Shown piece by piece: positions 40,975 through 50,330 of a DNA stretch of 64,000 nucleotides. Every line of letters starts with the position of its first letter. The first letter of the stretch is position 1. The notes beneath the pieces are model-generated. The model did not search any database. It saw only the letters and a program-made list of their open reading frames with translations, and was not told the DNA's origin. Position numbers and translations under genes: made by a program. Origin of the DNA: an uncultured Eubacteriales bacterium (GTDB taxonomy: Bacteria > Bacillota > Clostridia > Christensenellales > UBA1242). The DNA is taken from the NCBI GenBank assembly GCA_900551855.1, contig URXM01000006.1, positions 3,185 to 67,184 of the forward strand. The letters are read 5' to 3'.

Positions 40975-41157
40975 ATGAGTAATTTGCCAAGATACACATT
41001 GAGAATTCCTAATTCTTTACAACAAAAAATCAAATACACAGCAAATTTTAATGGTAGAAGCAAAAATAAAGAAATTGAAACAGCAATAAAAAGATATATA
41101 AATGATTTTGAAAGATTGCATGGAAATATAGAAATCGACAACGAAGTAGAAGATTAA
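40975..41157 (+). CDS. Arc/MetJ-type ribbon-helix-helix DNA-binding protein (orphan)
   Basis: PRYTLRIPNSLQQKIKYTANFNGRSKNKEIETAIKRYINDF follows the beta-strand/helix/helix pattern of the phage P22 Arc family (...NGRS.N.EI...). AAGGAGG lies 5 nt upstream of the ATG. Confidence 0.7.
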   Translation: MSNLPRYTLRIPNSLQQKIKYTANFNGRSKNKEIETAIKRYINDFERLHGNIEIDNEVED

Positions 41158-41183
41158 AAATTTAAGTAAAATCAAATTTTTGA

Positions 41184-41212
41184 TTGACAAGAACGATAAT
41201 GTGTTGTATAAT
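41184..41212 (+). promoter_or_regulatory. consensus sigma-A promoter of tRNA-Lys
   Basis: TTGACA (41184..41189), a 17-nt spacer and TATAAT (41207..41212), about 40 nt upstream of the tRNA. Confidence 0.75.
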
Positions 41213-41251: not shown

Positions 41252-41327
41252 GGGTTGCTAGCTCAGTTGGTAGAGCATTCGACTCTTAATCGAAGGGTCC
41301 GGGGTTCGAGCCCCCGGCAACCCACCA
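41252..41327 (+). tRNA. tRNA-Lys (anticodon CTT), CCA encoded
   Basis: The cloverleaf folds by hand. Acceptor GGGTTGC/GCAACCC, D arm GCTC-AGTTGGTA-GAGC, anticodon arm TTCGA-CTCTTAA-TCGAA, T arm CGGGG-TTCGAGC-CCCCG, discriminator A plus CCA. Confidence 0.95.
41317..41327 (+). repeat. left copy of the 11-bp direct repeat GCAACCCACCA (tRNA-Lys 3' end; attL-like)
   Basis: An identical 11-mer recurs at 49565..49575. The match extends to 15/16 if the next 5 nt are included (tacaa vs aacaa). Confidence 0.6.
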
Positions 41328-41449: not shown

Positions 41450-41532
41450 TTCATTTCAAAATCTTTCTTTATCACTTTTCTTTATTTATCATAAGATTTC
41501 AGCATAATTAAACTTTTCTCTAAAAATATATT

Positions 41533-44500
41533 TTATGACAATAACCATGTTAAATATTCCTTTGCCCAGCCTCTTGACATAGTATCATGATATGCTTGAT
41601 TATCATAATTTCTTAAACAACCATAACAACAAGTTTCTTCACCACAACCACATCTTCCATCTACTTTTCTTAATGCTTCAACTAAAATTTCTTTTATATG
41701 TCCTAACATTCTTTTTACATGTCCCGCTCCATTTGGAACAGTATCAAATAATGTAATACTAAAACCATTAGTATCTCCATTTTCCCATATGGCACCACCA
41801 ATTTCTCTTCTATCTATTTCCATAAACTTTGATGCTCCTTCAATTATAGCATAAAGTATAGACTCAAATTCTGCCATAGGATTTTTATATTGGGGCAAAT
41901 GCAAGACCAAAGCATCAGACATAAAATGATGCCCTAAATAACAACTCACTAACTTTCCTGCGCAAGGGAAATTGTTCGCAGTTCTATGCTCATGTGATAT
42001 TGTCCCATTTTTTGTCAAACTAAGTTGAACATAACCACATTTTTCACAAATATTAAATGCTAATCCTATATTTCTATTTTTAGAAGCATATTTCCCTCTG
42101 TTAATAACAAACATTTCTCCATGTGGAGAATAAATAGAATGTATAACTTTACCTTTTAAGACTATATCATTTTCTTCAATTTTAGCATTTTTTTCAAATC
42201 CATTAAAAAATGTCTCTGAAAAATATTTAACTTCATCTTTTAATTTTACAGATTCTTTATCAGAATCCTTTGTGATAAAACCAAATTGTGGAATAACCAT
42301 TTGCTTATATTTTAGTGTTCTATGACAGCAAGTTTGCTCTCTATTAAGACTTTCTACTCCTAGTGCTGTTTTATAAAAATATATTTTCCCACAACTTTCA
42401 CATATAGCAAAATCATAAGTAGGCCATTCTCTATTAGGTTGTTTCTTTAAAGCATAAGGTTTCCAAAATTTTCCATTTGCAACAACTTGACTCCCTGGAG
42501 CATATTCAGTAATCGCCATCCTCAAATCTCTGTTTAAATCTATTGAACTTTTAACAATATCACTTGTGTTCAAATCTAATGGAACAACATATACAGGGAA
42601 ACCATATCTTGGAAGAACATTATTTTCTGCTAAAAATGAAATATAATCTTTTGAATTATATGTTCCAATCAATTTTTTTAATTTTCCTGCTTCAGAATAT
42701 TTCTTTTCTGCAGAGTATTTTTCTTCTGCATTTGATAATTCATTCATGGAAGCTTCAAAATTATTGATTGCATTATCTAAACAAGCATCTTCATTATTAG
42801 GATTATTGTTATCAACCAATTTCTTAACAAATGACCAATCATTATCAACACCAAGTTCTTTCTTTATCTTTTCTGGAACAATAATATTGATTGATTTAAA
42901 AAGATCTTGTGGTTTTTTGCTCAAAATATTATATAATTCGATGTTCAAATTAGGATGGTTATCATGTGCCAATAAGTCTTTCACAGATTTAAAATTGTAT
43001 CCTATATAACTTAAATAACTAAAAATAACTGAATGAATGTGTCTTCTAACAAGATAGGCATTATTTAACTCTATATAAGGAGCCTGTATAATGCCATTAA
43101 TCATCTTGACAGGATCATTATAATAAGTTAAATCGTGTGATCTTCTCTTTGCAAAAGTTAATATAAAAGCAGCTGATGAACCTCTTCTTCCTGCACGCCC
43201 AGCCCTCTGGATATAATTAGATGTTTCTGGAGGAACATTTCTCAAAACGACAGACTCAAGAGAACCAATATCAACCCCCATTTCAAATGTTGTTGAACAA
43301 CTTAATATATTAACTTCATTTTCTTTGAAATGTTTTTGTAAATCAGTTGCTGTTTGACTTGAAATTTGTGCTGTATGCTCTTTTGCATTCATAGGAATTA
43401 GTTGAATATTTGAAAAACTTTGACGATAATAATCACCTCTATCTTCATTCTCGCTTATTTCAATTAAATTTCCATCGCAATTTGTCTTTGTACAAATCCC
43501 AAAAAGGTTGATTTTTACAGTTTCTCCACATTTATTGCATACATAAAGTTTACCCTTTTGTTTTTCAAAAGATATATTATCCAACCTTAACTGATAATAC
43601 CCATTTACTTTATCTTGAATTAAAATTGGTAACTTTACAACAAAATAATTTTCTTTAAATGATGTTGAAAGTTCATCAAGAAATTTTAGAGATTTTTCAT
43701 TGCTTTCTTCTTGATTAAGGCCTTTATGTTCAAAGAAATGTTGTAAATAGTTTAAACGACTATTTGTTCTTTTGTCAGAAGGCTTAAATCCAAAAACTTG
43801 ATAATCTTTTCCTCTCTCTCCTCCTTGAGTTTTAAAATATGCATTTCTATTTTTCGGTTCAAAAGCATCATCTGTTGGACTAACACCTTCTGGAAATTGC
43901 ACACAACCTTGTCTTCTTAAACTGTCAAACAACACATAAATTATATTAAGGAGCTCATCTTTTGAAATTTCATATTTGTTACAAAAATGATTAATAATTT
44001 GACTATCAATTTTATCCAAGGAATTTATTTTAATATTTATCATACCCAGTCTATTTAAAGACATTCTTGGATCCAATTCAATAATCTCTTGCATGATGTG
44101 TTGCTTAGCAATACTTTTTTTATCATCGTCATTATTTATATCATAGAATAATTTATGTTCATTTGCTATTCTGAAACATCTTTCTGATAACAAATTAAAA
44201 CTTATAGACTCTTCAGTCATATCTTTAATAACATTATAAATAATATTTTTCCACAACCAATCGTTATATCTGTTTTGTATAAAAATTGCAAATTTGGCAG
44301 CATCTTGCCTATTGTCTGAAAACACTAATAATTTTCTGCCATTTATAATTTCATCTTCTGAATTACATACACTTCCCCAAATGCTATCCGTTTTTGTTTC
44401 TTCCTTTTTAGTTTTTTCTTCAGGCAATAATTGGTAAAGTTTTCGTGTTAACATTTCTGTTGCAGAATCTTCACTAGTAGTAAGTTTTCTTATAGTTCCT

Positions 44501-46269
44501 TTATTAAACTTCCCACATTTATAGCAGTTATTTTTTCTTGCTTTTTTAGGAATTTTTGTCATTTTTATAAAGTTAGCAGCCTCTATTCCACAACAAGAAA
44601 TAGTATCTGGAATTTTTGCAGCAAAAAGTTTTCCACACTTAGGGCACATAACATATTCTTGCTTATCTTCTTTTGAATAAGAAAATTCATCTAATGAATC
44701 ATCTTCATCAATTGAAATCTCTCCATCTGATAAAGAAAGCATAAATAAATACTCATCATTATCTTCGGTTGGTATAAGATATTCTTCGCCATTTATCACA
44801 TCAACAGAACCAACTATATATTCTTGTCCACATTTCATACAATTTAATAATTCATAAACTTTATATCCATTATACTCTTTTTTCCTATTAGTAAAGATTT
44901 TTATATCATCAGCAAATGTAATAAATCCTCCTTCCAATGTCCTTGCAAAAACATGATATTTAGCATTTATTAAAGGATTCCCATCAGTTGGCGAAATCGC
45001 TTCTCCACATAGTTCAATAATTTTTGCTATTGTATCTTCTAAACCTGTATCTGTAATTTTTAAATCATTTTTTAATTCATCTGACAATTCTTGAATAGTT
45101 ATTGTTTTTTCCAAAATTCTTTTTCTTATTTCATAAACGAGTTTGTCTTTTGACAAAATATTATATAATTTTGAAGCCTTATCATCTTTGTTATAATTTT
45201 GATATTCAGAAAAAAGTTGTTGGTAATAAGACAAATCTTTAATCTGTCCAGAGACTTCCAATAATGGCAATCTATCAGATTGAATAATTGAATTTTTATC
45301 AAAATATTCATTAAATAAATCTTTTGCAAAATCTACAACTTTTTCAATTTCACCTTCTTCTCCACCAAGTGTAGCACTTGTCCCGATACAAGTTAAACAA
45401 TTATCAATTTTTCCAAAAACTGTTTCTTTCAATCGTCTTATCAACATCGCGACTTCTGTTCCATGTGCACCTTTGTATGTATGTGCTTCGTCTAAAACAA
45501 GAAATTTAAATTTGTTACTATACTTTCCTTTAAAAATTTTTTGGCTTGTTGCTCTTAAAAGCATATATTCTAACATTGCATAGTTTGTAATAAGAATATG
45601 TGGTGGTCGAGCTTCCATTTCAGCACGGGTTAACAATTCATTTTCTAAAGCATCGCTACCATTCACTCTTTTATATTCTTCATTCGCTTCTTTTCTTCCT
45701 TTTTTGATATTATCTCTATTGCCTTCTGGAGTCTCTCCAATATATCTGCCAAAGGTTATTTGTGACAAATTTTTTAAAGATTTCCTTAACCTCCCAATTT
45801 GGTCATTTGCTAATGCATTCATCGGATATATTAAAAGAGCTCTAACACCTGGTGATAAGGTATTATTATCAAATTCATTAAGCAATTCATTTATTATTGG
45901 TATAAAGAAGCATTCTGTTTTACCAGAACCAGTTCCAGATGCAACAATTATACTTCTGTTATTATTTACCAATTTTATAGCTTTTTCTTGATGATTATAT
46001 CTTTTATAAACGGCATATTCGTCATAAGTGAAAGCATTTTTAATATTTTTGTTTAACACACCTTCTTCAACCAATTCTTGTAATGTATGAGTCCCTTTAT
46101 ATGGCATTGTTGCCTGTATAAATGGTCCTTTTAGCAATTGACATTCTTTAGACAAAGCATCTTTTGCAGCTTTGTTTATTTTGTCATTTCTAAAGGTAAA
46201 CTGTGCGTCAAGAAAGTCTTTATATGCTTCGTTTAATTGGTTAAATGTTTTTATTGGGTCTAGTGCCAT
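41533..46269 (-). CDS. large DEAH-box SF2 helicase with zinc-ribbon insertions and a C-terminal DUF1998/MZB domain (DruE/MrfA-like)
   Basis: Helicase motifs are I ASGTGSGKTE, Ia LLIYPMNALANDQ, II LVLDEAHTYKG, III GTSATL, V TTFEMGVDIG and VI QRAGRAGRRG. CxxC pairs are CMKC, CPKC, CYKC, CNKC..C..C, CESC and CEKC. The C-terminus reads GRCGCGEETCCYGCLRNYDNQAYHD. AAGGAGA lies 7 nt upstream of the ATG. Confidence 0.9.
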   Translation of the reverse strand: MALDPIKTFNQLNEAYKDFLDAQFTFRNDKINKAAKDALSKECQLLKGPFIQATMPYKGTHTLQELVEEGVLNKNIKNAFTYDEYAVYKRYNHQEKAIKLVNNNRSIIVASGTGSGKTECFFIPIINELLNEFDNNTLSPGVRALLIYPMNALANDQIGRLRKSLKNLSQITFGRYIGETPEGNRDNIKKGRKEANEEYKRVNGSDALENELLTRAEMEARPPHILITNYAMLEYMLLRATSQKIFKGKYSNKFKFLVLDEAHTYKGAHGTEVAMLIRRLKETVFGKIDNCLTCIGTSATLGGEEGEIEKVVDFAKDLFNEYFDKNSIIQSDRLPLLEVSGQIKDLSYYQQLFSEYQNYNKDDKASKLYNILSKDKLVYEIRKRILEKTITIQELSDELKNDLKITDTGLEDTIAKIIELCGEAISPTDGNPLINAKYHVFARTLEGGFITFADDIKIFTNRKKEYNGYKVYELLNCMKCGQEYIVGSVDVINGEEYLIPTEDNDEYLFMLSLSDGEISIDEDDSLDEFSYSKEDKQEYVMCPKCGKLFAAKIPDTISCCGIEAANFIKMTKIPKKARKNNCYKCGKFNKGTIRKLTTSEDSATEMLTRKLYQLLPEEKTKKEETKTDSIWGSVCNSEDEIINGRKLLVFSDNRQDAAKFAIFIQNRYNDWLWKNIIYNVIKDMTEESISFNLLSERCFRIANEHKLFYDINNDDDKKSIAKQHIMQEIIELDPRMSLNRLGMINIKINSLDKIDSQIINHFCNKYEISKDELLNIIYVLFDSLRRQGCVQFPEGVSPTDDAFEPKNRNAYFKTQGGERGKDYQVFGFKPSDKRTNSRLNYLQHFFEHKGLNQEESNEKSLKFLDELSTSFKENYFVVKLPILIQDKVNGYYQLRLDNISFEKQKGKLYVCNKCGETVKINLFGICTKTNCDGNLIEISENEDRGDYYRQSFSNIQLIPMNAKEHTAQISSQTATDLQKHFKENEVNILSCSTTFEMGVDIGSLESVVLRNVPPETSNYIQRAGRAGRRGSSAAFILTFAKRRSHDLTYYNDPVKMINGIIQAPYIELNNAYLVRRHIHSVIFSYLSYIGYNFKSVKDLLAHDNHPNLNIELYNILSKKPQDLFKSINIIVPEKIKKELGVDNDWSFVKKLVDNNNPNNEDACLDNAINNFEASMNELSNAEEKYSAEKKYSEAGKLKKLIGTYNSKDYISFLAENNVLPRYGFPVYVVPLDLNTSDIVKSSIDLNRDLRMAITEYAPGSQVVANGKFWKPYALKKQPNREWPTYDFAICESCGKIYFYKTALGVESLNREQTCCHRTLKYKQMVIPQFGFITKDSDKESVKLKDEVKYFSETFFNGFEKNAKIEENDIVLKGKVIHSIYSPHGEMFVINRGKYASKNRNIGLAFNICEKCGYVQLSLTKNGTISHEHRTANNFPCAGKLVSCYLGHHFMSDALVLHLPQYKNPMAEFESILYAIIEGASKFMEIDRREIGGAIWENGDTNGFSITLFDTVPNGAGHVKRMLGHIKEILVEALRKVDGRCGCGEETCCYGCLRNYDNQAYHDTMSRGWAKEYLTWLLS

Positions 46270-46271
46270 TT

Positions 46272-49200
46272 TTATATCTCCTTTTTATATGATGATTGAT
46301 TTAACATTTCAGAAAGCAAAGCTTTTGAAAAATCTTTCAACAAATTTTTTATATATTTTGATACTTTTACAAATAAAGAAATATTGTTTTGTATATCGTG
46401 TTGATTTAATATCAAATCAACTATAATCATCAAAATTTGTTTTTCTTCTTTGAATTTTGAAAACTCAGGAATCGCTTTAATCTTCTTCATTTTTTGTTTA
46501 ATATAGTCAACATTATCTACATCTGGGAATAGATAATATTTTTTTGCCCACATAAAATTTTCTTTATCTGTAAAGGTGTCTAAAATTTTCAAATTGTTAT
46601 TTGTTATTTCTTCTAAAAGTTCAACATTATTTTTTAAACAAATATATACGATGTAAAGGTATTTATTATAGTCCAACAATTCTATAAAAACTCTTCTATC
46701 CATTAAATTTTCTTTTTTAGTTATTGGAACATATAGAAATAATTCATTCGTTATTTTATCAAATTGTTCTTTACTTAAATCATATTGAAACAATAGTTTT
46801 AATATAATCTCATCTCCAAAGTGAAATCTATTTTTAAAAATATATTTTAGTAAATATTTTATAACCTTCAAATATTCTTCGTTCGACTGAAAAAAGTTAG
46901 TATTAAATCTATAAAATAAATAACAATAAACAGCATTATTTAAATCATCTATGTTGTCGTCTTGAAATGCTAATTGTGAAAAATCATTATCTTTAACCCA
47001 CAAAATAGTAGTATTTTTGCTATCAATTAGATCTTTTTTCTCATTTGTCGAAAAAATACTATTTTCTTTATTACTTACTATTTCAACAACACAATTATCT
47101 ACAAGTCTTTCATCATTATCATCTATATAAGCCATTAAATTATCATCTTTAATTGGTATAGAAAAGAATTTATATGGCTTTGACAAATATCTAAAAACCA
47201 TTTGTCTATTTTTGCAAGAGCCATCTTCATCCCATTGAAATATATATGTATTGCCTAATTTATTTAAAAAAAAGTTTCTTATAGATATATTAATTCTAAT
47301 CTCGCAAATTTCACAAATCTTATCAAAATTTTCTTCAATTGAAATCAAACACGAATTCTCTCCTGAACATATAAATTCGATATATTCCACAAGATTAATA
47401 ACTGTTTTTGAAGATTTTCTTATTCTTAAGGATTTTTGATTAACATTGTTGTTAAACCTTACATATATGTCGGAATTTGTATTATTAGTAATAGTTAGAA
47501 GGCAATCTCCATCAATTTTTAAATCTTTAACTGATAAAAATGCTTTTTTATTTGGTTGTCCAAATAATTTGTTATTTGATTCAATTATCCATTTATATGG
47601 CTTAATAATAAATTTGAATTTATACTCCTTCTCATTATAAACATAATATCCGTTAAAAATATCACAAGAACTTGGTATATTTACTCTGTTTATTATTTCA
47701 TGATTGCTATCTAATATTTTACATTTATCACGTGATTTAAAAATTATATATGAATTTTTGTATCCACTAACTCCTGGATAATATTGACTAAAATCAATAT
47801 TAACTGCAGGTAAATATAAAAATTTAAATGTCTTATATCCAATCTCTGGAAAGTAAAATCTTAATCCTATTTTCCCAAAACTTAATCTTCCAATATAATT
47901 TGACATGTCAAAAACAAAATTTTCAATAACAACTTCTTCATCTATAATTTTATTTTCATCTACACTGATTTTTACTTGCCATTGACCGTTAAAAGGGACC
48001 TCTATTTTCGGCAACAAACTAAATGCTTCCAACCCTTCAAAATAGCAGTTATCGCTTATTAATTTGTTATCACTTATTAATTCAAAAGGTCTTTTAATCT
48101 TTATGTTAAAAGTATCTAGATTTGATTTAAATATAACTTCTCTTTTGTCAGTTGTTGGTGCTTGATAGTAAACATTGTAGCCATTATAAACGCCTATTAG
48201 TTCTATAGTATTGTCATCTGTTTTGTAATTTCCATCAAGTAAAATATATGCTCCATTGTTTAAAATAAATTTTGATTTGTTAAGTTGTCCAAAATTGTTA
48301 AAAGTTAAATACTTATCGTTTTTATCCTTTAAAGTATATTCGCATAATAGAGTGTTAATATCATTTAATAATCTTAATTTAATTTCATCAAATTGATTAA
48401 GAATTATGGTTGAAGTTCTAAAGAAATATTCATCGTTTAACTTCTCACCATAAATTTTTCTATAACCTACTTTATCACCACTATAAACTTCCCAAATACA
48501 AAAAGCAGTATCCTTCATTGTCATTTCAGGTGTATCTATAACAACTTTATTGCTATTTATATCAAATCTCAATGTTAGTTTTTTATATCTTGAAGATATA
48601 TATCTATTATCATTATCTTTTCTATTATTACACCAATTTATGATTCCTTTTTGAAAAGGTATTGGCAGGATTGAAGTTTCATTTATAATCTCAATTTTAT
48701 CTTTAATTGCACTAATAATTTCAAAAACAAAATCACTCAATAATCCATTTTTGTTTAATAAGTCAATATATCTTTTTACATTTTTAGTGGAATATCTAAA
48801 TACATATAATGTTTCATCAGCTAAATTATTATACGAAATTTCTTGTAACATTAATGGTTCTAAATTGTCCAAAAAATTATTAATAAGGTTATTTGGTAAC
48901 CCAGAATGAGCAATTATTGGAGCAAGATTTTTATAGCTATCTTCTTTTAAATTTTGAAAACTACTCAAATTATAAATGGAAATTGTTCTATCAAATGCTT
49001 TTATCAACAATTCTCTTTTGTTTGGTTGTGAGATATTTGTCAGTCTTTCTACAGCCTGCCAAAATCCACCTTCTCTATCATTATAAAAATATTTTGCAAT
49101 GCCAACAAGAAAGATTGTTATTGTTTCTTTTATATCATAGACTTGTTCCCATGACATATAATTTGCAATCTGAGATAATTTTTTACCAATCTCAATTGTC

Positions 49201-49295
49201 TCTTCTTGTGAAAAAAGCACCTTTTCAATCAACTCATAATTTTCAAGTCTTGAAAGTCTATCTTTGCAAATCTGGTTTATTTCTGCTAAATCCAT
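46272..49295 (-). CDS. 1007-aa protein of unknown function, first gene of the helicase operon (possible DruH-like partner)
   Basis: Long uninterrupted ORF. I could see no Walker, nuclease, HNH, PLD or TM motif. The ends look helical and the middle looks beta-rich. Its stop codon lies 2 nt before the helicase ATG. Confidence 0.85.
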   Translation of the reverse strand: MDLAEINQICKDRLSRLENYELIEKVLFSQEETIEIGKKLSQIANYMSWEQVYDIKETITIFLVGIAKYFYNDREGGFWQAVERLTNISQPNKRELLIKAFDRTISIYNLSSFQNLKEDSYKNLAPIIAHSGLPNNLINNFLDNLEPLMLQEISYNNLADETLYVFRYSTKNVKRYIDLLNKNGLLSDFVFEIISAIKDKIEIINETSILPIPFQKGIINWCNNRKDNDNRYISSRYKKLTLRFDINSNKVVIDTPEMTMKDTAFCIWEVYSGDKVGYRKIYGEKLNDEYFFRTSTIILNQFDEIKLRLLNDINTLLCEYTLKDKNDKYLTFNNFGQLNKSKFILNNGAYILLDGNYKTDDNTIELIGVYNGYNVYYQAPTTDKREVIFKSNLDTFNIKIKRPFELISDNKLISDNCYFEGLEAFSLLPKIEVPFNGQWQVKISVDENKIIDEEVVIENFVFDMSNYIGRLSFGKIGLRFYFPEIGYKTFKFLYLPAVNIDFSQYYPGVSGYKNSYIIFKSRDKCKILDSNHEIINRVNIPSSCDIFNGYYVYNEKEYKFKFIIKPYKWIIESNNKLFGQPNKKAFLSVKDLKIDGDCLLTITNNTNSDIYVRFNNNVNQKSLRIRKSSKTVINLVEYIEFICSGENSCLISIEENFDKICEICEIRINISIRNFFLNKLGNTYIFQWDEDGSCKNRQMVFRYLSKPYKFFSIPIKDDNLMAYIDDNDERLVDNCVVEIVSNKENSIFSTNEKKDLIDSKNTTILWVKDNDFSQLAFQDDNIDDLNNAVYCYLFYRFNTNFFQSNEEYLKVIKYLLKYIFKNRFHFGDEIILKLLFQYDLSKEQFDKITNELFLYVPITKKENLMDRRVFIELLDYNKYLYIVYICLKNNVELLEEITNNNLKILDTFTDKENFMWAKKYYLFPDVDNVDYIKQKMKKIKAIPEFSKFKEEKQILMIIVDLILNQHDIQNNISLFVKVSKYIKNLLKDFSKALLSEMLNQSSYKKEI

Positions 49296-49386
49296 ATCAA
49301 AATTTCCCTTTGCTTTTGTATTAACTTAATTATGATAATAATACTATTAACATTATCAAAATTCATTTCTATATTGTATATAGTAT

Positions 49387-49395
49387 ATTATAGCA
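49387..49395 (-). promoter_or_regulatory. candidate extended -10 (TGcTATAAT) for the island operon
   Basis: The minus strand reads tgcTATAAT about 92 nt upstream of the ATG at 49295. The -35 is weak (TATAAC). Confidence 0.35.
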
Positions 49396-49455
49396 TACTT
49401 TTCCTTAATGTTATAAAATATTTTACAAAATTTACTTGTTTATTTTTTCTTTTTT

Positions 49456-49464
49456 CCCCCCCCC
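49456..49464. repeat. C9 (G9 on the operon strand) homopolymer tract
   Basis: tattttttcttttttCCCCCCCCCagtg. It is the only long G:C homopolymer I noticed in the window. Confidence 0.9.
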
Positions 49465-49564
49465 AGTGTAGAAAATAATAGATTTAAAAAAGTACAGATA
49501 TAAAATGACACTAAAAAGTTCCAAAGTCACCTCTTACTAGAGCTATTCTGGAGTCAGAATACAT

Positions 49565-49575
49565 GCAACCCACCA
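49565..49575 (+). repeat. right copy of the 11-bp direct repeat GCAACCCACCA (attR-like)
   Basis: Identical to 41317..41327. The terminator hairpin at 49582..49610 follows immediately. Confidence 0.6.
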
Positions 49576-49579
49576 AACA

Positions 49580-49616
49580 AAAAGGAAGTTGTTTTTTTTG
49601 CAACTTCCTTTTTTAT
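49580..49616. terminator. bidirectional terminator (HD gene; ancestral tRNA-Lys terminator?)
   Basis: Hairpin aaggaagttg-ttttttttg-caacttcctt with a 10-bp perfect stem, an A-run upstream and a T-run downstream. Confidence 0.7.
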
Positions 49617-49622
49617 TTTGTC

Positions 49623-50330
49623 TTAATCAAATTTTAATAAATATACATACATCTCAAAAGCAAATAAAACAATTCTTTTGGCAGTATTAGTTCTTAACAT
49701 ATCAATTTGAATCTTAGGATAAGGCAACCTTACTCTATCTAGTCCATCAGCATCTTTTAAAAGATTAAATAACTTTTTGCACTTATTTTTATCTTTAACT
49801 TTATAAATTTCAATATACTTATCTATCTCACTATCATTCATACAATGACAGGCAACAATAGTTTTCATTAAATTCAATTCTTCTTCATTATAATCAATTA
49901 AAAAATCAAATTTACTCGCACTTTTAAGCCCATGTTTATAATCCACACAGTCATCTGTTCTTCCAATATCGTGATATTTAGCACAATCTATCAACATTTC
50001 AAATTCTCTCATTGATATATCTTCAAAATTTGCTAAAATATACGCAAAAATAGAAACTCTTATATTATGATTTATTCCATGCATATTGCTCTTATATAAT
50101 TTTTCTGGTTGTATATTTTTTATTTTTTGTATAAATTGTTCTTTAAATTTAGAGCTTTCAAAAATGTGTGATATTTGTTCTTTAGTTATAGGGATTATTC
50201 CCATCTTTTTTAAATCTTGTTTTGTCTCAACATAATAATTGTAAAGATAATCGTTTGTTGTAATTTTAAATAATTTATTACAATTAACTAAATCATCTAT
50301 AATTTCATCTATATTTGATAACAAATCCAT
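49623..50330 (-). CDS. HD-domain phosphohydrolase-family protein
   Basis: Contains HGINHNIRV, AKYHDIGR and LKDADGLDR, giving the H...HD...D metal-ligand pattern. Confidence 0.75.
   Translation of the reverse strand: MDLLSNIDEIIDDLVNCNKLFKITTNDYLYNYYVETKQDLKKMGIIPITKEQISHIFESSKFKEQFIQKIKNIQPEKLYKSNMHGINHNIRVSIFAYILANFEDISMREFEMLIDCAKYHDIGRTDDCVDYKHGLKSASKFDFLIDYNEEELNLMKTIVACHCMNDSEIDKYIEIYKVKDKNKCKKLFNLLKDADGLDRVRLPYPKIQIDMLRTNTAKRIVLFAFEMYVYLLKFD

What the first reader, a model, noticed from the sequence alone, without database searches (positions are those of the whole stretch)
41533..49295. Two-gene operon: a 1007-aa unknown protein plus a 1578-aa DEAH helicase with DUF1998/MZB. Candidate anti-phage defence system, Druantia-III-like or new
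Seen in sequence: the two long genes are co-directional and translationally coupled. The upstream TAA is at 46272-46274, the AAGGAGA for the helicase lies inside the last codons of the upstream gene, and the ATG is at 46269. They are the only genes inside a tRNA-flanked insertion.

The helicase has a complete SF2 motif set (GSGKT, DEAH, SAT, QRAGRAGR). It ends in the Cys4 signature ...CGCGEETCCYGCLRNYDNQAYHD, which is typical of the DUF1998/MrfA zinc-binding domain.

Established knowledge: helicase plus DUF1998 proteins are the signature components of Druantia (DruE) and DISARM (DrmA/DrmB), and of the repair helicase MrfA/YprA. Druantia type III (Doron et al. 2018) is a two-gene druH-druE cassette with a large uncharacterised DruH upstream.

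Inference: this cassette is a defence system. I cannot tell from the sequence alone whether the partner is a DruH homologue or an unrelated new partner. It sits in a very AT-rich Clostridia-type genome where such systems are essentially unstudied.
Basis: partly seen in the sequence, partly recalled or inferred. Interest (0 to 1): 0.9.

Follow-up and report, generated by a model that had tools for sequence, protein, structure and literature searches.

The report
Compact Druantia-III-like defence cassette, divergent DruH
Two tightly linked genes carried on a decayed tRNA-Lys island in a gut Clostridia genome are a compact, nuclease-free version of the known Druantia type III anti-phage system, and its DruH-like partner has diverged so far that current detection models all miss it.

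Summary
Two intact minus-strand genes of 1007 aa and 1578 aa sit 2 nt apart, with an AAGGAGA inside the end of the first. They are the only genes between an intact tRNA-Lys and a decayed copy of its 3' half.

The 1578-aa protein is clearly a DruE helicase (PADLOC DruE models E 1e-187; DEAD, Helicase_C and MZB domains). It ends right after MZB, so it lacks the PLD nuclease domains of E. coli and Pseudomonas DruE. This resembles the nuclease-less "type III-B / III-like" branch.

The 1007-aa partner hits no DruH model (PADLOC DruH3, NCBIfam YjiT_fam, precomputed Pfam PF27205/PF27201). Three things still point to DruH:
- Its N-domain profile aligns to the DruH N-domain (hhalign 87%, E 4e-6, shuffles far lower).
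- A 112-cluster superfamily sits directly upstream of a compact DruE in all 6 other distinct contexts inspected.

The cassette is about 90% identical in other gut Clostridia MAGs with different flanks. In two of them it sits beside a tyrosine integrase gene, in one next to an intact tRNA-Lys.

Verdict: a Druantia III-like defence cassette and a new variant of a known kind. Function is untested. Interest is moderate, not 0.9.

The parts
41252..41327 (+). Intact tRNA-Lys(CTT). Its 3' half (about 41280-41327) is the island boundary repeat (att-like).
   Evidence: ARAGORN. Alignment with the remnant and with the L006 tRNA and remnant. A perfect TTGACA-17-TATAAT promoter lies at 41184-41212.
41501..49452 (-). 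The mobile cassette block. It is about 90% nt identical in five other loci from gut Clostridia MAGs and metagenome contigs (L004, L006, L010, L011, L012), which have at least two different upstream flanks.
   Evidence: blastn of the window against the fetched loci. Flank gene content differs between loci.
41533..46269 (-). druE-like gene: a 1578-aa YprA/MrfA-family SF2 helicase that ends just after the MZB domain and has no PLD or Vsr nuclease domain.
   Evidence: ORF. PADLOC DruE1 1.3e-187 and DruE3 1.2e-168. Pfam. PDB 9tu7 DruE E 1e-72. BLASTP against E. coli DruE covers its residues 12-685 and 1073-1713 of 2104.
45364..45996 (-). DruE RecA1 (DEAD/DEAH) domain, aa 92-302, with GSGKT at aa 114, DEAH at 260 and SAT at 298.
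   Evidence: Pfam PF00270 9.3e-26. Motif positions.
43180..43395 (-). DruE RecA2 (Helicase_C) core, aa 959-1030, with QRAGRAGR at aa 1021.
   Evidence: Pfam PF00271 6.2e-12. Motif position.
41614..41853 (-). DruE MZB/DUF1998 zinc-binding domain, aa 1473-1552, containing CGCGEETCCYGC at aa 1540.
   Evidence: Pfam PF09369 4.9e-12. Motif position.
46277..46283 (-). Shine-Dalgarno AAGGAGA for druE. It lies inside the last codons of the partner gene, 7 nt before the ATG. The stop (46274-46272) and the start (46269) are 2 nt apart.
   Evidence: Sequence read. Equally tight or overlapping junctions occur in the homologous pairs L001, L013 and L016.
46272..49295 (-). druH-like partner gene, 1007 aa. 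It has no hit to any DruH model.
   Evidence: ORF. Zero hits in Pfam, PADLOC and NCBIfam. 8 close clusters and 112 profile hits. AF2 model with pLDDT 78.
48588..49295 (-). Partner N-terminal all-alpha domain, aa 1-236. This is the only part with detectable homology to DruH. Conserved polar residues are E32, R94, H130, D160/E161 and R175. The motif C-H-A-G-I-P corresponds to C-E-G-G-L-P in DruH.
   Evidence: hhalign N-domain against the DruH N-domain: 87.3%, E 3.8e-6, with controls at or below 22.7 score. Conservation table. AF2. No PDB fold neighbour.
47001..48575 (-). Partner central region, aa 241-765: about six beta-sandwich (Ig/Fn3-like) domains.
   Evidence: AF2 secondary structure. Foldseek hits are to Ig/Fn3 arrays such as the OSM and leptin receptors, CD109 and C3, and to phage Ig-repeat proteins.
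46281..46952 (-). Partner C-terminal all-alpha domain, aa 782-1005. In DruH the equivalent domain contacts DruE. No sequence similarity to the DruH C-domain was detected.
   Evidence: AF2. hhalign C-domain against C-domain gives no signal. The role in DruH comes from 10.64898/2026.05.13.724313.
49296..49452 (-). Conserved upstream region, likely holding the cassette promoter. Candidates are ATAACA-16-TG-TATAAT at 49414-49387 and TTGATA-16-TATCAT at 49359-49332.
   Evidence: Lies inside the 90%-identical block. Consensus scan, which is not above chance for the region as a whole.
49528..49575 (+). Decayed copy of the tRNA-Lys 3' half, the second island boundary. GCAACCCACCA is exact at 49565-49575.
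   Evidence: Sequence. Alignment A4 with the tRNA and with the well-preserved L006 copy.
49579..49613 (+). Terminator-like hairpin immediately after the remnant. It is probably the original tRNA-Lys terminator, displaced by the insertion.
Evidence: Terminator scan: 14-bp stem followed by a T run.

Best explanation
**What it is.** This is a compact Druantia type III-like anti-phage cassette. It is carried as the only surviving cargo of an integrative island that inserted into tRNA-Lys(CTT) and later lost its integrase module.

**The helicase.** The downstream gene encodes a DruE helicase of the YprA/MrfA family: an SF2 core plus a zinc-binding MZB domain. By analogy with characterised DruE, it should load on exposed single-stranded DNA at duplex junctions of phage replication or recombination intermediates and unwind 3'-to-5' using ATP.

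[quoted passage not shown] By analogy with DruH, it should bind or trim single-stranded 3' DNA ends. Its C-terminal domain should dock onto DruE to license the helicase on phage DNA.

**The unresolved step.** This DruE has no PLD nuclease, so the killing step cannot be DruE-catalysed cleavage. It must come from one of three sources:
- the partner's own exonuclease activity, if it has any
- host nucleases acting on the unwound DNA
- helicase-driven disruption of replication

**Shown versus inferred.**
- Shown: gene structure, DruE identity, absence of PLD domains, partner architecture (predicted), remote N-domain homology, conserved pairing, mobility, and purifying selection.
- Inferred: anti-phage function and every biochemical step.
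For: **DruE identity.**
- PADLOC DruE1 1.3e-187 and DruE3 1.2e-168.
- Pfam DEAD, Helicase_C and MZB.
- The best PDB sequence matches are the DruE cryo-EM entries 9tu7 (1e-72) and 9wae.

**No nuclease domain.**
- The alignment to E. coli DruE stops at its residue 1713 of 2104, just after MZB.
- No nuclease family appears in Pfam.
- Bell et al. 2025 describe a 'type III-like' branch that most often has no nuclease. Himpich et al. 2026 describe III-B as a compact DruE lacking PLDs.

**Partner looks like DruH.**
- The AF2 model (pLDDT 78) has helices at 1-236, about six beta-sandwich domains at 241-765, and helices at 782-1005. This is the plan seen in DruH cryo-EM structures.
- Full-length hhalign of the partner superfamily against a DruH profile scores 50.6 over 612 collinear columns, both starting at about residue 33. 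The reversed control scores 17.5 and 30 shuffles score 12.9-18.5.
- N-domain against N-domain gives 87.3%, E 3.8e-6. All cross-domain controls score 17 or less.
- Shared motifs: S..E..L, FLVxxAxY against FCLyaAEw, an invariant Trp, and C(H/E)(A/G)G(I/L)P.

**Conserved pairing.**
- In all 6 other distinct contexts inspected, a relative of the partner sits directly upstream of a 1554-1772-aa DEAD/YjiV_N/Helicase_C/MZB helicase.
- Partner identity falls together with helicase identity. The partner goes 86, 36, 23 % and then not significant. The helicase goes 94, 66, 38, 31, 24 %.

**Accessory and mobile.**
- The block is 90% identical with different flanks.
- L006 carries tRNA-Lys, a tyrosine integrase (Pfam 1.4e-25) and a tRNA half repeat.
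- L001 has a WYL regulator and FtsK/SpoIIIE neighbours.
- Only 7 loci were found among 185,579 species genomes.
- GC is low across the cassette.

**Constraint.** dN/dS is 0.15 for the partner and 0.07 for the helicase.

**Two genes suffice in relatives.** The downstream 314-aa and 315-aa genes found in two lineages are unrelated to each other.
Against: **No functional data.** Nothing has been tested for this cassette or for any member of its partner superfamily.

**The partner fails every profile-to-sequence test for DruH.**
- PADLOC's ten-plus DruH3 models give no hit.
- NCBIfam YjiT_fam gives no hit, while the E. coli DruH control scores 977 bits.
- The precomputed Pfam PF27205/PF27201 hits are absent.
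- Reciprocal HMMER searches give zero hits at E of 10 or below.

**Homology is limited.**
- The evidence rests on hhalign of the N-domain only. The full-length probability is 41%.
- The Ig region is marginal (E 0.09) and the C-domain shows nothing.
- The ssDNA/ATP pocket residues of E. coli DruH lie in regions that could not be aligned.
- The DruH Glu in the 'AEW' motif aligns to Lys68 here.

**No direct structural comparison.** DruH structures are not in the Foldseek PDB copy, which is cut off at 2026-04-08.

**The published work disagrees on key points.**
- PLD nuclease mutants abolish defence in the Pseudomonas system but are dispensable in the E. coli system. It is therefore unclear whether a PLD-less DruE can clear phage.
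- The papers also disagree on whether DruH is an exonuclease or an ATP-gated ssDNA binder.

**The island is degenerate.** The window copy has lost its integrase module, so this copy could be on its way to decay.
Confidence: 0.7

Rival explanations
1. This is a new Druantia type. The 1007-aa protein is not a DruH homologue but an analogous, independently recruited Ig-repeat partner. The system would then sense or act differently from DruH-DruE.
For: - All DruH HMMs fail, with positive controls working.
- The C-terminal domain, which contacts DruE in DruH, has no detectable similarity, and the Ig region is only marginal.
- The DruE scores about equally against the PADLOC DruE1 and DruE3 models, so it lies outside the III-A clade.
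- Ig-like arrays are common and could be convergent.
Against: - The N-domain profile-profile match is specific: 87%, E 3.8e-6, collinear from the same start residue, and far above the shuffled, reversed and cross-domain controls.
- The domain order, overall size and operon position are identical to DruH.
- Partner similarity decays smoothly with DruE divergence rather than breaking abruptly.
Confidence: 0.15
2. The cassette is a decaying, non-functional relic. The island lost its integrase and accessory genes, and the two large genes are no longer expressed or useful in this genome.
For: - In the window, the integrase, 152-aa and 314-aa module present in L004 and L006 is missing, and the tRNA half repeat is heavily mutated.
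- The promoter-like sites are not above chance for this AT-rich region.
Against: - Both ORFs are full length, with the same lengths as all homologues (1007 and 1578 aa), and all catalytic motifs are intact.
- dN/dS is 0.15 and 0.07.
- The upstream 157 bp is conserved together with the genes.
- Loss of the integrase typically fixes useful cargo in place rather than inactivating it.
Confidence: 0.08
3. The pair has a housekeeping DNA-repair role like MrfA/MrfB (YprA/YprB) and is not an immune system.
For: - The helicase shares the DEAD, Helicase_C and MZB core with MrfA/YprA (PDB 6znp, E 3e-19).
- DruH has been reported to be a 3'-5' exonuclease, as is MrfB.
Against: - The helicase scores 625 bits against DruE models, versus 71 bits against YprA.
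- There is no MrfB-like DnaQ exonuclease partner.
- The pair is rare, is carried on an island, has low GC, and is found in different contexts, including beside a tyrosine integrase gene (L004, L006) and in an ICE-like setting.
Confidence: 0.03

Closest known systems
Druantia type III-B / 'type III-like' branch (Bell et al. 2025, 10.1101/2025.09.15.676423; Himpich et al. 2026, 10.64898/2026.05.13.724758)
   Same: - Both are two-gene operons with a large domain-less partner directly upstream of a compact DruE.
- The DruE has DEAD, Helicase_C and MZB domains but no C-terminal PLD nuclease.
- Both are carried on mobile elements.
   Different: - The partner here is not recognised by any DruH model.
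- I could not obtain a III-B DruH or DruE (GIH50614.1) to compare directly, so membership of that exact branch is untested.
- The host is a low-GC gut Clostridia lineage.
Druantia type III-A, DruH-DruE of E. coli and P. aeruginosa (PDB 9tu7 and others; 10.64898/2026.05.12.722862, 10.64898/2026.05.13.724313, PMC13192584)
   Same: - The operon order and tight coupling match.
- The DruE helicase core and MZB domain align: 24% identity over 1414 aa.
- The partner has the same layout of N-helical domain, about six Ig-like domains and C-helical domain, and a remotely homologous N-domain.
   Different: - DruE is 1578 aa rather than about 2100 aa and lacks both PLD-like domains.
- The partner is 1007 aa rather than about 1120 aa, and BLAST or HMMER similarity to DruH is not significant.
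- The ssDNA/ATP pocket residues cannot be mapped.
- There are no Zorya II or ARMADA II neighbours.
MrfA/MrfB (YprA/YprB) mitomycin repair pair of Bacillus subtilis
   Same: Both have an SF2 helicase with an MZB/DUF1998 zinc domain working with a second protein that acts on DNA ends.
   Different: - The helicase here is twice as long and carries DruE-specific insertions.
- The partner is an Ig-repeat protein, not a DnaQ-type exonuclease.
- The pair is accessory and mobile, not core.
DISARM (DrmA/DrmB) and Dpd (DpdJ)
   Same: Both are built on YprA-family helicase and DUF1998 modules.
   Different: - Matches to DrmA and DpdJ models are weak (64 to 106 bits, against 625 bits for DruE).
- There is no split helicase/DUF1998, no methyltransferase and no PLD DrmC nearby.

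Membership tests
Druantia (any type): DruE signature helicase | A large YprA/MrfA-family SF2 helicase with DEAD/DEAH, Helicase_C and a C-terminal MZB/DUF1998 zinc domain, with intact motifs | tested here: met
   Pfam DEAD 9.3e-26, Helicase_C 6.2e-12, MZB 4.9e-12. GSGKT, DEAH, SAT, QRAGRAGR and the Cys cluster are present.
Druantia (any type): DruE signature helicase | Matches DruE-specific profiles far better than those of other YprA-family helicases | tested here: met
   PADLOC DruE1 625 bits, DruE3 562, DruE2 457 and DruE4 388, against DpdJ 106, DrmA 64 and BrxH 82. Homologues carry the precomputed Pfam YjiV_N hit.
Druantia type III | A two-gene operon with the partner gene immediately upstream of druE on the same strand, and no DruA-D or DruM/F/G genes | tested here: met
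   The two genes are 2 nt apart with the RBS inside the partner gene. The flanking genes are housekeeping. The same pairing occurs in all 6 other distinct contexts inspected.
Druantia type III | The partner is recognised by DruH models (PADLOC DruH3, NCBIfam NF038336 YjiT_fam, Pfam PF27205/PF27201) | tested here: not met
   There are zero hits for the partner and for 30 relatives. The precomputed Pfam field is '-' for P0001-P0008. The positive control, E. coli DruH, hits 10 DruH3 models at E=0 and YjiT_fam at 977 bits. The local Pfam copy has no DruH model, so its negative result is uninformative.
Druantia type III | [quoted passage not shown] | tested here: met
   The AF2 model (pLDDT 78, pTM 0.52) has helices at 1-236, about six beta-sandwich units at 241-765, and helices at 782-1005. 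This was compared with published descriptions. It is a prediction only, and no coordinates were superposed.
Druantia type III | The partner is homologous to DruH | tested here: inconclusive
   hhalign of the N-domains gives 87.3%, E 3.8e-6. The full-length comparison gives 41.5%, E 2.7e-4, score 50.6, against nulls of 18.5 or less. The Ig region gives E 0.09 and the C-domain gives nothing. HMMER cross-searches are negative.
Druantia type III-A | DruE carries two C-terminal PLD-like nuclease domains | tested here: not met
   The protein ends 26 aa after MZB. The BLASTP alignment stops at E. coli DruE residue 1713 of 2104. No nuclease family appears in Pfam.
Druantia type III-B / III-like branch | DruE falls in the phylogenetically distinct compact branch represented by GIH50614.1 | not testable with these tools
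   The reference sequence could not be fetched. The accessions of related helicases (MBQ8451829.1, WP_071981757.1) are not in the held supplements of Bell et al.. Only the PLD-less compact architecture matches.
Druantia (any type) | Confers resistance to phage when expressed, and both genes are required | not testable with these tools
   An experiment is required.
MrfA/MrfB repair module | A MrfB-type DnaQ-like exonuclease partner and conserved core-genome synteny | tested here: not met
   The partner has no exonuclease family hit. The cassette is island-borne and its flanks vary.
DISARM | DrmA, DrmB (DUF1998) and DrmC (PLD), with a methyltransferase, in one locus | tested here: not met
   The neighbours are PFOR, GDPD, GlmS, RsmD and Alr on one side, and rubrerythrins, Hsp20 and NUDIX on the other. 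DrmA matches are weak.

The most novel reading that the evidence does not exclude
The partner superfamily found here has 112 clusters at 50% identity, mostly 1000-1400 aa. It sat upstream of a compact DruE in every context inspected. It may define a separate, currently undetectable Druantia subtype in which DruE has no nuclease at all. In that case immunity would depend on the divergent DruH-like protein as the sole nuclease or sensor, or on helicase action without DNA cleavage. That mechanism would differ from the helicase-nuclease model now proposed for type III-A. Because the PLD is naturally absent, the variant could also help settle whether DruE's PLD nuclease is needed for defence, on which the 2026 papers disagree.
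Probability: 0.3. Interest if true: 0.6.

Novelty: new variant of a known kind. Interest (0 to 1): 0.42.

Why it matters
**Detection gap.** PADLOC, NCBIfam and Pfam DruH models would miss the partner and therefore the system. Such loci would at best be reported as an orphan DruE. The profile built here recovers 112 clusters paired with compact DruE helicases. Adding such a model would extend Druantia detection into gut and rumen Firmicutes, where these systems are hardly charted.

**Mechanism.** This is a natural PLD-less DruE paired with a DruH-like protein. Only the N-terminal domain of that protein, the proposed catalytic or sensing part, keeps recognisable similarity to DruH. That makes it a useful comparison for two open questions:
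- Is DruE's nuclease required for defence?
- What does the conserved DruH N-domain do?

**Limits.** The system is not categorically new. The helicase, the operon logic and the partner's architecture all fall within known Druantia III biology.

Tried and rejected
**Searches on the partner that found nothing.**
- Sequence search of the partner against PDB chains gave only noise (E 0.075 or worse). A profile search with 31 members also found nothing.
- Foldseek of the full partner model against PDB and BFVD returned only generic Ig/Fn3 arrays with TM below 0.15. The DruH structures are apparently not in that PDB copy, which is cut off in April 2026.
- Foldseek of the N-domain alone gave no hit better than E 0.76, so there is no functional lead.
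- Reciprocal HMMER searches between the partner and DruH sets gave zero hits.

**A conserved third gene.** This was rejected. The 314-aa gene after the helicase in L006/L011 and the 315-aa gene in L016 are unrelated. The window lacks both.

**Search for an 'empty' tRNA-Lys site in a relative.**
- An exact-pattern scan for the terminator hairpin found nothing.
- Homologues of the flanking 235-aa gene were found only on short contigs with a different, MGE-like context.
- No empty site was shown.

**Check whether Bell et al. had already classified related helicases.** The accessions are not in the supplements that are held.

**Type I, type II, DISARM and Dpd readings.** These were rejected because no accessory genes of those systems are nearby and their model scores are lower.

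Full report
**1. The observation**

The two ORFs exist exactly where stated, on the minus strand. The partner is 46272..49295 (1007 aa) and the helicase is 41533..46269 (1578 aa).

The junction reads AAAAAGGAGATATAAAAATGGCA:
- TAA stop at 46274-46272
- a 2-nt spacer
- ATG at 46269
- AAGGAGA at 46283-46277, inside the partner's last codons

The helicase carries GSGKT (aa 114), DEAH (260), SAT (298), QRAGRAGR (1021) and the C-terminal CGCGEETCCYGC (1540).

Only one tRNA gene is adjacent, tRNA-Lys(CTT) at 41252-41327. The other boundary is a decayed copy of that tRNA's 3' half at about 49528-49575. It runs from the anticodon loop to CCA, and GCAACCCACCA is exact at 49565-49575. A terminator-like hairpin follows it. 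GC falls to 0.24 over the partner gene, against about 0.31 nearby.

**2. The helicase is DruE, in a compact nuclease-free form**

- Pfam finds DEAD (92-302), Helicase_C (959-1030) and MZB (1473-1552).
- PADLOC gives DruE1 at 1.3e-187 and DruE3 at 1.2e-168. DpdJ, DrmA and BrxH score far lower.
- The best PDB sequence matches are the recent DruE cryo-EM entries, 9tu7 at 1e-72 and 9wae. YprA/MrfA scores 3e-19.
- BLASTP against a bona fide E. coli DruE aligns residues 9-692 to 12-685 and 963-1574 to 1073-1713. That DruE came from a Zorya II-DruH-DruE-ARMADA II plasmid locus, L019. It continues to residue 2104 with its PLD-like domains, whereas the window protein stops 26 residues after MZB.
- Bell et al. 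2025 describe a distinct 'type III-like' branch that most often has no nuclease. Himpich et al. 2026 call the PLD-less compact form III-B.

**3. The partner**

It has no hit in Pfam, PADLOC or NCBIfam and none among PDB sequences. The controls behave as follows:
- E. coli DruH hits ten PADLOC DruH3 models at E=0 and NCBIfam YjiT_fam at 977 bits.
- The local Pfam copy has no DruH model.
- The precomputed Pfam PF27205/PF27201 hits that mark DruH homologues are absent from the partner's homologues.

The close family is tiny: 8 clusters among 5.8 billion proteins, all about 1005-1021 aa. A profile search of 1.84 billion representatives finds 112 proteins. Most are 1000-1400 aa and match the N-terminal two-thirds.

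In all 6 other distinct contexts inspected, a relative of the partner lies directly upstream of a 1554-1772-aa DEAD/YjiV_N/Helicase_C/MZB helicase, 1 to 3 nt apart or overlapping by up to 20 nt. Partner and helicase identities to the window fall together:

| Locus | Partner identity | Helicase identity |
|---|---|---|
| L006 | 86% | 94% |
| L001 | 36% | 66% |
| L013 | 23% | 38% |
| L014 | about 29%, partial | 37% |
| L016 | about 25%, partial | 37% |
| L018 (C. butyricum) | not significant | 31% |
| L019 (E. coli) | not significant | 24% |

AlphaFold with 9 sequences (pLDDT 78, pTM 0.52) predicts helices at 1-236, about six beta-sandwich domains at 241-765, and helices at 782-1005. Two cryo-EM studies describe this same plan for DruH. 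Foldseek finds only generic Ig/Fn3 arrays. The N-domain alone has no PDB neighbour. That PDB copy predates the DruH depositions.

**4. Is the partner homologous to DruH?**

HMMER says no in both directions. Profile-profile comparison says probably, at least for the N-domain:
- Full-length hhalign of a 31-member partner alignment against a 26-member DruH alignment scores 50.6 (P 2.7e-4). It covers 612 collinear columns that start at residue 34 in the partner and 32 in DruH.
- The reversed DruH profile scores 17.5, and 30 column shuffles score 12.9-18.5.
- Domain by domain:

| Comparison | Result |
|---|---|
| N-domain vs N-domain | 87.3%, E 3.8e-6 |
| Ig region vs Ig region | E 0.09 |
| C-domain vs C-domain | no signal |
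| All cross-domain pairings | score 17 or less |

Shared motifs include a conserved Glu (E32 here, E40 in E. coli DruH), an invariant Trp, and C-H-A-G-I-P against C-E-G-G-L-P.

I conclude that the partner is a very divergent DruH-like protein. The evidence is good for the N-domain and rests on architecture alone for the rest.

**5. Mobility and selection**

- Window 41501-49452 is about 90% identical at the nucleotide level to five other loci from gut Clostridia MAGs and metagenome contigs, which have at least two different upstream flanks.
- In L006 the order is: intact tRNA-Lys, GNAT, tyrosine integrase (Pfam 1.4e-25), a 152-aa gene, a 314-aa gene, the helicase, the partner, then a well-preserved tRNA-Lys 3'-half repeat. 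L004 has the same module.
- The window has lost the integrase module, so it carries a degenerate island with only the two genes.
- A 36%-identical pair in a rumen MAG sits beside a divergent WYL regulator and FtsK/SpoIIIE genes.
- Only 7 loci were found among 185,579 species genomes.
- dN/dS against L006 is 0.15 for the partner and 0.07 for the helicase.
- The window's flanking genes are housekeeping.
- No conserved third gene exists.

**6. Mechanism**

This part is inferred from published type III-A work:
- DruE loads on ssDNA at duplex junctions and unwinds 3'-to-5'.
- DruH binds or trims 3' ssDNA and docks on DruE through its C-terminal domain.

Here the helicase and MZB parts are intact but there is no PLD. 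Clearance must therefore come from the partner, from host nucleases, or from unwinding itself. The literature disagrees on whether the PLD is essential.

**7. Verdict**

This is a real, intact, mobile, two-gene Druantia type III-like cassette. It is a new variant of a known kind, because it combines a nuclease-less DruE with a DruH-like partner that current models cannot see. Function is untested. Interest is moderate (0.42).

Noticed in passing
P0050 and P0060 (hits); L017: Two distant relatives of the partner's N-terminal domain are fused to transcription modules. P0050 (1345 aa) ends in sigma-70 regions 1.2 to 4. P0060 (1686 aa) starts with an RNA polymerase alpha-CTD and sigma region 4. 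A DruH-like N-domain tied to sigma factors is unexplained.
   Followed up: partly
L014 9455-11150 and L015: In one distant lineage, the stop of the 1772-aa DruE-like gene is overlapped by a UvrD-family helicase gene. This may be a three-gene variant of the system.
   Followed up: no
L001 8848-9831 and 18333-21693: The 36%-identical pair in a roe-deer rumen Clostridia MAG has a divergent WYL/WCX regulator immediately upstream and FtsK/SpoIIIE genes downstream. This is typical of regulated defence cargo on a conjugative element.
   Followed up: no
window 49456-49464: A run of nine C in 24% GC DNA lies exactly where the 90%-identical cassette block ends, at 49452. It could be a recombination junction or a slippage-prone tract upstream of the promoter.
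   Followed up: no
window 49623-50330 (-); L020: The 235-aa ORF just outside the island has an HD-like motif (YHDIGR). Its 82% homologue in L020 lies among an integrase fragment, Rep-like ORFs, an XRE regulator and another tRNA-Lys 3'-half copy. tRNA-Lys therefore looks like a recurrent integration site, and this ORF may be a relic of a second island.
   Followed up: partly
window 40975-41212: A 60-aa Arc/ribbon-helix-helix ORF (Pfam Arc 4e-6) is followed by a perfect TTGACA-17-TATAAT promoter at 41184-41212, directly upstream of tRNA-Lys.
   Followed up: no
L005 (CALUZF010000185.1): A 2.6-kb contig binned as Candidatus Gastranaerophilales carries an 87%-identical partner gene. This is either mis-binning or recent transfer outside Clostridia.
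   Followed up: no
L018 (Clostridium butyricum megaplasmid pNPD4_2, NZ_CP013238.1, 295546-303431): A cultured organism carries a related pair: a 1069-aa hypothetical protein plus a 1559-aa DruE-like helicase. The helicase is 31% identical to the window's. Its partner matches the superfamily profile at hhalign 93.8%. This gives an accessible strain for experiments.
   Followed up: partly
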